A stretch of 64,000 nucleotides of DNA, from assembly GCF_009914755.1 (NCBI RefSeq), contig NC_060933.1; one strand, written 5' to 3'. Of the stretch, positions 906 to 2,225 are shown in pieces; within the stretch, counting starts at the first letter, position 1, and every line of letters begins with the position of its first letter. The position numbers and the translations under genes are program-made. The notes beneath the pieces were generated by a model, which saw only the letters and a program-made list of their open reading frames with translations, was not told where the DNA came from and ran no database searches. The DNA comes from the human T2T-CHM13v2.0 reference genome, Homo sapiens.

Positions 906-1060
906 GGCTGGTTGCGGTAGTTCACACCTGTAATCCTAACGCTGTCAGAGGCCGAAGCAGGTGGATCGCTACAGCCCAGGAGTTCAAGACCAACCTGGGC
1001 AACAGGGAAAACCCCGTCTCTACTATAACCACAAAAAATTAGCCAGGCATAGTGCGTGCC
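906..1060 (+). mobile_element. AluJ-like left arm, broken just after the central linker
   Basis: ggctggttgcggtagttcacacctgtaatcc...aaaaattagccaggcatagtgcgtgcc. Confidence 0.9.
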
Positions 1061-1081
1061 ATTAGTTATATGCCAGATAAA

Positions 1082-1284
1082 GTTTTATTTGACTTTGGGA
1101 GTAAATTATTCCTAGCAATCTCTGAATTTTAGGTTCCAAAGAACCCTGGAGATAAATGGTAATTATATGCCCAGTATTATAGGTTATTTAACCTTACAAT
1201 TTAAAATAACCAAACCAAAACTTTCCGGTATGCTACCTGCATGTGCACAGCATATAACTGTACTTGGCATGTAGTGGGTTGTGT
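1082..1284 (+). repeat. Arm 1 of a local non-TE inverted duplication (partner 2051..2225)
   Basis: 1082..1147 is the exact reverse complement of 2160..2225; the remainder aligns with about 14 substitutions and two gaps. Confidence 0.93.
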
Positions 1285-1842
1285 TAGTTTCCTGTTGCAG
1301 CTGTAATAAATTACCCTAAACTCAATTGGCTTAAAACATACTTTTTATCTTATAATTCAGAAGTCCTAAAACCTGGATGCCACATTCTTTTTGGAGGATT
1401 TAAAGGAGAATCTGTTTTCTCTTCTTTTTTAGTAGTTTTTTTTTTAGGCTAGCCAAGTAAAGCAGTGAGAGCAGAGAGGGAACAGAGCAATCTGTAACTG
1501 GTTGTGATCATTTAGTTGTAAATACGACCACACTTGGACTAGCCTTTTCCAGTTTTTAAAGGCTGCCTTCATTCCTTGGCTCATGGCCCCATCTTCCATC
1601 TTTCAGACTAGTAGTGTGGCATCCTCCAATCTCTCTCCATCTCTGAGCTCTGCTTCTGTCCACATGTCTCCTTCATTCTGACTCTCCTGCCTTTGTTTTC
1701 TAATAAAATTTTTTTATTGAGATGAAGCTCATATAACATAAATTCCATCATTTTAATGTATACAATTCAGTGGTTTTTAGTATGCGCACAATTTGTGCAA
1801 CTATCATCATTAATTCCAGAACTTCCTCCCTCTTATAAGAAC
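1280..1842 (+). mobile_element. MLT1-type MaLR LTR fragment, interrupted by the Y3 retrocopy and an L1 3-prime piece (about 1706..1822, minus)
   Basis: Starts tgtgttagtttcctgttgcagctgtaataaattacc; contains ggctgccttcattccttggctcatggcccc. Confidence 0.75.
1424..1544 (-). pseudogene. Y3 RNA (RNY3) retropseudogene with A-rich tail, inserted in an MLT1 LTR
   Basis: Minus strand GGCTAGTCCAAGTGTGGTCGTATTTACAACTAAATGATCACAACCAGTTACAGATT...CTTGGCTAGCC matches hY3 over its full length (1447..1544), followed by poly(A). Confidence 0.9.
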
Positions 1843-1896
1843 TTTTTTTTTAACTTTTCTTCTTTCATTAAAAATAAATAAAGGTATAGCTGACAA

Positions 1897-2050
1897 TTTT
1901 TTTTTTTTTTTTTTTTTTTGAGACTGGGTGTCAATCTGTCGCCCAGGCTAGAGTGCAGTGGTGCAATCCTGGCTCATTGCAACCTCCACCTCCCAGGCTC
2001 AAGTGATCCTCCCGCCTCAGCCTCCCAAGTAGCTGGGACTACAGACGCAC
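1897..2050 (-). mobile_element. AluJ-like right arm with poly(A); inverted partner of the 906..1060 left arm
   Basis: Minus strand gtgcgtctgtagtcccagctacttgggaggctgagg...(A)n. Confidence 0.9.
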
Positions 2051-2225
2051 ACACAACCCACTACGTGCCAACCACTGTTATGTGCTGTGCATATGCAAGT
2101 TTTGGTTCGGTTACTTTAAATAACCTATAATACTGAGCATATAATTATCACTCGTCTCTAGGGTTCTTTGGAACCTAAAATTCAGAGATTGCTAGGAATA
2201 ATTTACTCCCAAAGTCAAATAAAAC
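2051..2225 (-). repeat. Arm 2 of the local inverted duplication
   Basis: Reverse complement of 1082..1284. Confidence 0.93.

What the first reader, a model, noticed from the sequence alone, without database searches (positions are those of the whole stretch)
906..2225. Ancient ~1-kb inversion that split an Alu and left a ~200-bp inverted duplication at its breakpoints
Seen: an Alu left arm (+, 906..1060) stops just after the central linker, and the matching right arm lies on the opposite strand at 1897..2050. Flipping about 1061..2050 rebuilds one complete Alu flanked by ttgtc on both sides, and the host L1 tail then continues (tttttatttg...ttgtcagctatacct). Non-TE sequence 1082..1284 is the reverse complement of 2051..2225. 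The 21-nt junction filler (attagttatatgccagataaa) resembles nearby ttatatgcccag (1163..1174). Inference: a staggered-break or template-switch inversion with a templated filler, as seen in polymerase theta or MMBIR repair. Repeat annotation would list these only as unrelated fragments.
Basis: partly seen in the sequence, partly recalled or inferred. Interest (0 to 1): 0.8.

Follow-up and report, generated by a model that had tools for sequence, protein, structure and literature searches.

The report
Old 1-kb inversion splitting an Alu
A roughly 1-kb piece of a TMEM245 intron was flipped tens of millions of years ago, cutting an Alu repeat in two and leaving duplicated sequence at both ends; it is a clean but ordinary example of a known kind of rearrangement.

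Summary
The inverted-repeat arms 1082-1284 and 2051-2225 match at 161 of 175 aligned sites with two gaps. They are the only two copies in the whole assembly. Alu left arm 906-1060 joined to the reverse complement of 1897-2050 aligns as one full-length Alu. The host L1 3' tail continues on the flipped strand, as other L1 copies show.

I add three things:
- About 8 nt are also duplicated, inverted, at the Alu break (1052-1060 and 2044-2050).
- A third piece, 503-646, is a TSD-less 144-nt insertion in the L1. It was copied from the Alu 3' part and A-tail: 93.5% identical to 1920-2027, against at most 86% for any other Alu in the window.
- The outer 66 nt of the arms are identical, which suggests gene conversion.

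[quoted passage not shown] Template switching versus staggered breaks cannot be settled here, and no outgroup genomes were available. I call it a new member of a known kind, of low to moderate interest.

The parts
400..502 (+). Host L1 3' region, part before the third copy; ends in GCCA (499-502)
   Evidence: Aligns with 9 other L1 copies fetched from the same assembly
503..646 (-). Third copy 'c': a 144-nt insertion in the L1, made of a 9-nt leader (503-511), T27 (512-538) and 108 nt of the Alu right-arm 3' part (539-646). It has no target-site duplication and no L1 loss. CCA lies at 500-502 and 644-646.
   Evidence: 93.5% identical to 1920-2027 against at most 85.7% to other window Alus. 15 shared differences against 3+4 private ones. 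8 of 9 other L1 copies run straight through this site.
647..904 (+). Host L1 3' region resumes (GGGGCT...) and runs to TTGTC (900-904), the left copy of the short direct repeat around the Alu. T at 905 is unassigned.
906..1060 (+). Alu left arm, A-rich linker and first ~25 nt of the right arm. The last 9 nt (1052-1060, GTGCGTGCC) are repeated, inverted, at 2044-2050.
1061..1081 (.). 21-nt filler at the left junction, origin unknown
   Evidence: No second copy with up to 3 mismatches in the window. Best local match is at chance level.
1082..1284 (-). Inner (inverted) copy of segment X, 203 nt
1285..1896 (-). Single-copy interior of the inversion, now reversed. It holds an old interspersed repeat split by a Y RNA retropseudogene (1443-1544), an older L1 3' end, then the tail and A-run of the host L1 (about 1840-1891) and GACAA (1892-1896), the right copy of TTGTC.
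   Evidence: L1 tail; Y_RNA. The names of the older repeats are recalled, not tested.
1897..2050 (-). Alu A-tail (T23, 1897-1919) and right arm (1920-2050), reversed. The last 7 nt (2044-2050, GACGCAC) are the inverted repeat of 1052-1060.
2051..2225 (+). Outer copy of segment X in ancestral orientation, 175 nt. It abuts the Alu piece with no filler and no clear microhomology.

Best explanation
SHOWN. The ancestral order was: L1 (400-502 and 647-904), one complete old Alu inserted in the L1 3' tail, the rest of the L1 tail and its A-run, older repeats with a Y RNA retropseudogene, a single-copy segment X, then downstream intron. Today the block from the middle of the Alu to the end of X (1082-2050) lies reversed. 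X is present twice, once inside the block (inverted) and once outside. About 8 nt at the Alu break are likewise present twice. A 21-nt filler sits at the left junction. A 144-nt copy of the Alu 3' part with its A-tail sits 400 bp upstream in the L1, in the same reversed orientation.

INFERRED. All of this arose in one replication-based rearrangement of the FoSTeS/MMBIR type with four switches. The growing strand left the L1 at GCCA and copied the A-tail and Alu 3' part backwards. It came back at the same L1 base through a CCA match and ran on into the Alu. It then switched to the end of X and copied backwards to the Alu break. Finally it switched to the start of X and went on.

The event is tens of millions of years old and presumably fixed. 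Afterwards the two X copies exchanged sequence by gene conversion over their outer 66 nt.

My odds: a real inversion with end duplications, 0.9; one event rather than two, about 0.6; a replicative mechanism, about 0.55. The confidence given is for the whole statement.
For: Inversion:
- The Alu halves break at the same Alu position and rebuild one colinear element.
- The L1 tail continues only after the flip.
- X lies exactly at both junctions in inverted orientation and exists nowhere else in the assembly.

Small duplication: the rebuilt Alu carries 8 extra alignment columns at the join. 23 of 25 comparison Alus lack them entirely; the other two have unrelated 2- and 4-nt insertions there.

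Third copy:
- c and 1920-2027 are each other's nearest relatives at 93.5%, with the next best at 86.4% and 85.7%.
- They share 15 differences from the column majority of 25 window Alus and have only 3 and 4 private ones.
- c interrupts the L1 with no target-site duplication and no loss, with CCA on both sides.
- An Alu at nearly the same L1 place in L005 has an 11-nt direct repeat, as ordinary retrotransposition gives.

Same age: K2P is 0.086 +/- 0.024 for X/X' and 0.069 +/- 0.027 for c against its source; Fisher p = 0.82.

Class known: complex inversions flanked by duplications are held to fit MMBIR/FoSTeS or several simultaneous breaks (PMC5338099, passages).
Against: - No outgroup sequence was available, so the uninverted single-copy state is inferred, not seen.
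- The right junction (2050|2051) is blunt, with no microhomology that I can reconstruct.
- The left junction has a 21-nt filler with no template above chance. Both features fit end joining at least as well as template switching.
- The 9-nt leader of c (503-511) matches the flank of the source (GCTGACAA at 1889-1896) only loosely.
- The equal divergence of the two pairs has wide error bars, so two separate events are not excluded.
- If the mismatch-free 66 nt are set aside, X/X' differ at 14 of 109 sites (12.8%) against 7 of 108 for c and its source. That is not significantly different (p = 0.17) but leans towards c being younger.
- The subfamily test of the two Alu arms was inconclusive: 5:6 for the left arm, 5:3 plus one neither for the right.
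Confidence: 0.5

Rival explanations
1. Same inversion, different mechanism and two events. Two pairs of staggered breaks, about 8 nt apart in the Alu and about 190 nt apart around X, on one chromatid or between sisters, were filled in and rejoined by non-homologous end joining. This gave the inverted duplications, with the 21 nt as end-joining filler. The 503-646 insertion is a separate templated patch, laid down when an unrelated break in the L1 was repaired using the nearby Alu piece.
For: A blunt right junction and an untemplated filler at the left junction. In Drosophila, 17 of 29 fixed inversions carry such inverted duplications of non-repetitive sequence, with a median of 321 bp and a minimum of 46 bp; they may lie at one or both ends and are explained by staggered breaks (PMC1885836, passages). 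After the inversion, c and its source lie in direct orientation 1.38 kb apart, so one simple excursion would be enough.
Against: It needs two rare rearrangements within 1.5 kb at about the same time, the second copying the very segment that ends 23 nt from an inversion breakpoint. A 190-nt overhang has to be unwound; the Drosophila authors note this difficulty themselves.
Confidence: 0.33
2. The third piece (503-646) is an independent 5'-truncated Alu insertion that was later overwritten by gene conversion from the Alu piece at 1897-2027. The inversion itself stands.
For: Gene conversion does seem to act at this locus: the outer 66 nt of the X arms are identical, and only 1407 of 100000 random placements give such a run. 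5'-truncated Alu insertions into this part of L1 exist (L005).
Against: There is no target-site duplication around c, and the L1 is uninterrupted to the base. The similarity covers the whole of c including a long pure T run (T27 against T23). The 15 shared differences are spread over its full length.
Confidence: 0.07
3. No inversion took place. Two unrelated truncated Alu fragments, an unrelated L1-like tail and a chance or transposon-derived inverted repeat happen to lie together, or the arrangement is an assembly error.
For: Only that no outgroup was examined and that the subfamily test of the two arms was inconclusive.
Against: Five independent features fall on the same two points: the same Alu breakpoint in both halves, the TTGTC repeat, the L1 tail continuity, and X abutting both junctions. 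X has only two copies genome-wide, so it is not a transposon end. The copies differ by 6.5-8%, so they are not an assembly duplication.
Confidence: 0.03

Closest known systems
Inversions flanked by inverted duplications of ancestrally unique sequence (staggered-break model; Drosophila melanogaster group, Ranz et al. 2007, PMC1885836, passages read)
   Same: A reversed segment with one copy of a formerly single-copy stretch inside and one outside the breakpoint, in inverted orientation. The duplication size (175-203 nt) lies within their range of 46 bp to 1.9 kb. The copies have since diverged (88% mean identity there, 92% here). Both ends are duplicated, but unequally.
   Different: A human intron, with an inversion of about 1 kb instead of chromosomal scale. 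One break lies inside an Alu. There is a 21-nt filler and an additional third templated copy, neither of which that model predicts.
dupINVdup / INVdup complex structural variants in human genomes (Collins et al. 2017, PMC5338099, passages read; the first description by Brand et al. 2015 is recalled, not read)
   Same: The same signature: an inversion with duplicated sequence at its ends, attributed to MMBIR/FoSTeS or to simultaneous breaks.
   Different: Those were detected as large, mostly rare or de novo variants with long-insert libraries. This one is about 1 kb, old and presumably fixed, and is read from sequence decay rather than from read pairs.
Alu-associated inversions between human and chimpanzee (Lee et al. 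2008, PMC2603318, passages read)
   Same: [quoted passage not shown]
   Different: Their main class (28 Alu-Alu recombination inversions) needs two inverted Alus and leaves two chimeric full-length Alus. Here one Alu is cut in two and the other break lies in unique sequence. This event also far predates the human-chimpanzee split, judging by divergence.
Short-range template-switch mutations in great apes (PMC7954356; search listing and start of abstract only)
   Same: Local excursions of a polymerase to a nearby template that leave an inverted copy.
   Different: Those events are described there as small-scale. Here the copied tracts are 144 nt and about 970 nt.

Membership tests
Inversion with inverted duplications at the breakpoints (staggered-break / dupINVdup class) | A segment lies in reverse orientation relative to both flanks | tested here: met
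   One Alu is split, with its halves on opposite strands. The host L1 tail continues on the opposite strand.
Inversion with inverted duplications at the breakpoints (staggered-break / dupINVdup class) | Formerly single-copy sequence is present twice in inverted orientation, one copy inside and one outside the inverted block, abutting the junctions | tested here: met
   X at 1082-1284 and 2051-2225, with only two copies in the assembly. About 8 nt at 1052-1060 and 2044-2050.
Inversion with inverted duplications at the breakpoints (staggered-break / dupINVdup class) | An ancestral, uninverted, unduplicated state exists in an outgroup or on another haplotype | not testable with these tools
   No primate or pangenome sequence is held. 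Only the window's own assembly could be searched.
Retrotransposon recombination-mediated inversion (Alu-Alu) | Two Alus in opposite orientation span the two breakpoints and end up as chimeric full-length elements | tested here: not met
   The second breakpoint lies in unique X. The Alu is cut into two complementary halves, not recombined.
Twin priming / 5'-inverted retrotransposon insertion | The inverted 5' part and the direct 3' part lie side by side within one pair of target-site duplications, with no host DNA between them | tested here: not met
   836 nt (1061-1896) separate the halves, including the host L1's own tail and unique X.
DNA transposon with terminal inverted repeats | The arms are ends of a multi-copy element | tested here: not met
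   A genome-wide search finds only the two arms themselves. Caveat: that tool scores only the best candidates, and no curated repeat library (Dfam) was available.
Templated insertion by template switching (MMBIR/FoSTeS-like), for the 503-646 piece | The insert is copied from a nearby donor, there is no target-site duplication, and there is microhomology at the return junction | tested here: met
   The donor lies 1.38 kb away and is 93.5% identical. The L1 is uninterrupted and CCA lies on both sides. 3 nt of microhomology is weak on its own.
Templated filler (polymerase theta-type), for 1061-1081 | The filler matches a nearby template better than chance | tested here: not met
   92 of 300 shuffles and 115 of 300 natural 21-mers reach its best score.
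Single Alu of one subfamily | Both arms carry the same subfamily states | tested here: inconclusive
   Groups were defined by one left-arm marker among 25 window Alus. Left arm 5:6, right arm 5:3 plus 1 neither, and c 5:4. Both arms are mixed alike, with 19.3% and 15.5% divergence from the column majority. No subfamily library was at hand.

The most novel reading that the evidence does not exclude
The locus is the fossil of one germline multi-template-switch event: four switches and three backward-copied tracts of about 8, 144 and 970 nt within 1.7 kb. It would be a kilobase-scale relative of chromoanasynthesis that went to fixation in an anthropoid ancestor. It also created a stem of about 175 bp in TMEM245 pre-mRNA, 3 kb from MIR32 in the same intron. 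The two arms have since been kept partly identical by gene conversion. The stem could be an editing or dicing substrate.
Probability: 0.4. Interest if true: 0.35.

Novelty: new member of a known kind. Interest (0 to 1): 0.25.

Why it matters
It is a well-preserved worked example. Transposon landmarks (a split Alu, its short flanking repeat and the host L1 tail) allow an old small inversion, its end duplications and an extra templated copy to be reconstructed to the base without any outgroup. Such cases are missed by repeat annotation. They could be mined genome-wide to measure how often small inversion-with-duplication events were fixed in primates and which junction types they carry.

For TMEM245 or MIR32 nothing functional is shown. 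The only direct consequence is a long intronic inverted repeat that folds into a double-stranded stem in the sense transcript.

Tried and rejected
- Template for the filler: an exact or near-exact search and a gapped local search of 1-4000 on both strands with shuffles found nothing above chance.
- Origin of the leader of c: CCATCCTACAAA occurs once more in the window with one mismatch, at 24907, where 0.56 matches are expected by chance. This is not informative.
- A look-alike arrangement on another chromosome (L005: L1, then a reversed Alu 3' part, then L1) first looked like a paralogue. It is an ordinary Alu insertion with an 11-nt direct repeat, and the L1s are only 72-77% alike.
- My first test of L1 tail continuity counted local alignments that span the join. 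It was useless because the lenient scoring let a control span too: 30 strand-alignments for the flipped join against 27 for the filler-plus-X control and 3 for the unflipped right flank. I replaced it with the anchored test.
- Two-group clustering of window Alus to type the arms gave a 2-against-23 split and no answer. The marker-based version was inconclusive.
- Other repeats in 1-6000: besides the two pairs, there is only ordinary Alu-Alu similarity to the element at 3813-4113.
- Literature: no paper on this locus turned up. 'TMEM245' plus 'inversion' gave one paper, unrelated by its title. 'microinversions, primate, Alu, breakpoints' gave 2 papers. A five-term search on inversions, inverted duplication and template switching gave 45, of which 12 were listed and none was about this site. 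Subscription papers are not covered.

Full report
OBSERVATION. I read 1-3000 and ran repeat detection.

The inverted repeat is real. A gapped alignment of 1082-1284 against the reverse complement of 2051-2225 has 161 matches, 14 mismatches and two gaps of 13 and 15 nt, which is 92.0% without gaps. In a self-BLAST of 1-6000 it has E = 1.2e-51. A search of the whole assembly in which the window lies (3.1 Gb, 24 contigs) returned only the query itself and this inverted copy: 2 matches from 2 candidates, E = 2.2e-47. The arms are therefore not ends of a repeated element, as far as that tool can see. No curated repeat library was available.

THE SPLIT ALU. I joined 906-1060 to the reverse complement of 1897-2050 in a script.
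- The product gives single colinear BLAST matches over nearly its whole 309 nt to full-length Alus of the window. 30 of 49 HSPs are at least 240 nt, for example query 1-299 and 1-304.
- It aligns as one element with 25 of them.
- At the join it carries 8 extra columns that 23 of 25 comparison Alus lack entirely. The other two have unrelated small insertions there. The last 9 nt of the left piece (GTGCGTGCC, 1052-1060) and the first 7 nt of the right piece (GTGCGTC, the reverse complement of 2044-2050) are the same Alu positions.
- Both arms are old. They diverge 19.3% and 15.5% from the column majority of the 25 Alus.
- A test of whether they carry the same subfamily states was inconclusive: both are mixed, 5:6 for the left arm and 5:3 plus one neither for the right.

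THE HOST L1. TTGTC lies at 900-904, followed by one extra T, and again as GACAA at 1892-1896. I fetched other L1 3' ends from the same assembly.
- In L007, L010, L017 and L020 the L1 runs straight across the point where the flipped sequence is joined.
- In an anchored test, 17 of 18 loci had a usable anchor (L014 was too weak). In 15 of the 17, the sequence after the anchor matched the flipped 1867-1896 better than today's continuation. L004 was worse and L019 tied. 7 of 17 reached p<0.05 against 500 random 30-mers.
- My first, looser version of this test was uninformative because a control passed as well.

These four landmarks coincide on two points: the Alu breakpoint, the short direct repeat, the L1 tail, and X abutting both junctions. 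Together they make the inversion about as certain as it can be without an outgroup.

A THIRD PIECE. The repeat finder also showed 516-646 as a direct repeat of 1897-2027.
- The Alu body 539-646 is 93.5% identical to 1920-2027 over 108 nt. The next best Alu in the window reaches 86.4% (to 1920-2050) or 85.7% (to c).
- The two share 15 differences from the column majority of 25 window Alus. Within the homologous 108 nt they have only 3 and 4 private ones. Five further 'private' columns of c are L1 flank, not Alu.
- An alignment with 9 other L1 copies shows the L1 is uninterrupted to the base around the insert (...GCCA | insert 503-646 | GGGGCT...). There is no target-site duplication, and CCA lies at 500-502 and 644-646. 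8 of the 9 other copies run straight through.
- The ninth, L005, has its own reversed, truncated Alu about a dozen bases further on, flanked by an 11-nt direct repeat. That is an ordinary retrotransposition and a useful contrast.
- The insert consists of a 9-nt leader (503-511), T27 and 108 nt of Alu. The leader resembles the flank of the source (1889-1896) only loosely.

I read c as a templated copy of the Alu 3' part with its A-tail, not as a retrotransposition.

THE FILLER. The 21 nt at 1061-1081 have no second copy with up to 3 mismatches in the window. Their best local match in 1-4000 on either strand is a 10-nt exact word at 54-63 on the other strand. That score is reached by 92 of 300 shuffled fillers and 115 of 300 random natural 21-mers. 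'Templated filler' is therefore not supported.

AGE.
- K2P distance is 0.086 +/- 0.024 for the X pair (12 transitions, 2 transversions, 175 sites).
- K2P distance is 0.069 +/- 0.027 for c and its source (7 transitions, 108 sites).
- The two do not differ (Fisher p = 0.82).
- At 1.0 to 2.2e-9 substitutions per site per year (rates recalled, not computed here) this gives about 16-43 million years.
- The mismatches in X are not evenly spread. The outer 66 nt (1082-1147 = reverse complement of 2160-2225) have none, and the other 109 sites have 14 (12.8%). A run that long arises in 1407 of 100000 random placements.
- Gene conversion between the arms is the simplest reading, and it means the arm divergence under-dates the event.
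- The event must be younger than the Alu.

MECHANISM. The derived order is: L1a, c (reversed), L1b, Alu-left plus 9-nt duplication, filler, X (reversed), interior (reversed), Alu-right (reversed) with 7-nt duplication, X, downstream. Two models give the inversion with end duplications.
- Staggered breaks with fill-in and end joining (PMC1885836, passages).
- Serial template switching (PMC5338099 names MMBIR/FoSTeS or simultaneous breaks, passages).

The blunt right junction and the untemplated filler fit end joining. The third copy lies in the reversed orientation, ends 23 nt from a breakpoint, and returns to the very base of departure through CCA. It fits a copying mechanism and makes one multi-switch event more economical than two unrelated rearrangements within 1.5 kb. 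I put a single replicative event at about 0.5 and staggered breaks plus a separate templated patch at about 0.33. I consider the matter open until outgroup junctions are read.

COMPARISON WITH WHAT IS KNOWN.
- In Drosophila, 17 of 29 fixed inversions have inverted duplications of non-repetitive sequence at their ends. The median is 321 bp, the range 46 bp to 1.9 kb, the copies are 88% alike on average, and the duplications lie at one or both ends.
- In humans the same signature is catalogued as dupINVdup or INVdup.
- Among 252 human-chimpanzee inversions, 22 had an Alu at only one breakpoint (PMC2603318, passages).
- The present case fails the tests for Alu-Alu recombination, twin priming and a transposon with terminal repeats (see the membership table).

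It is a new, unusually legible member of a known class. I found no paper on this site, but the library lacks most subscription journals.

CONSEQUENCE. The locus lies in a TMEM245 intron, about 3 kb from MIR32 at 5292-5361 (confirmed by Rfam). In the sense (minus-strand) RNA the two X copies pair into one long stem. The minimum free energy is -445.6 kcal/mol for 1171 nt, and no shuffle control was given at that length. Whether it is edited or processed is untested.

LIMITS. No primate, pangenome or repeat-library data were available. The ancestral state, the date by phylogeny, fixation in humans and the repeat names of the interior (recalled only) remain to be checked.

Noticed in passing
window 1443-1544 (-): Full-length match to the Rfam Y_RNA model (45.5 bits, gathering 38, E 4.2e-07, model 1-96 of 96), followed on the minus strand by an A-run. 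It is a Y RNA retropseudogene inside the inverted block, splitting an older interspersed repeat. It is not in the gene table supplied with the finding. By recall it looks most like the Y3 type; this was not tested.
   Followed up: partly
window 1082-1147 and 2160-2225: The outer 66 nt of the two inverted-duplication arms are identical, while the remaining 109 aligned sites differ at 14 (12.8%). Only 1407 of 100000 random placements of the mismatches give such a run. This is probably gene conversion between the arms; constraint is not excluded.
   Followed up: partly
window 1070-2240 (-): In TMEM245-sense RNA the two arms fold into one long, nearly continuous stem enclosing the 766-nt interior (MFE -445.6 kcal/mol). 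It is a candidate A-to-I editing substrate in the same intron as MIR32.
   Followed up: no
window 512-538 and 1897-1919: Two long uninterrupted T runs (27 and 23 nt) belong to an Alu tail whose body is 15-19% diverged. Pure tails of that length are unusual for so old an element (a statement from general knowledge) and may have been kept long or lengthened by slippage.
   Followed up: no
L005:1391-1917 (G000:C17:52998306-52998832): Another L1 copy carries a reversed, 5'-truncated Alu about a dozen bases from the place where the window's L1 carries its third copy. It has an 11-nt direct repeat on both sides, so it is an independent ordinary insertion. The search that found it favoured such arrangements, so the coincidence carries no weight.
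   Followed up: yes
window 1199-1211 and 1222-1236: The two gaps between the arms (13 and 15 nt present only in the inner copy) lie in A/T-rich sequence. The first is bounded by a short direct repeat (ATTTAA), as a slippage deletion in the outer copy would give.
   Followed up: no
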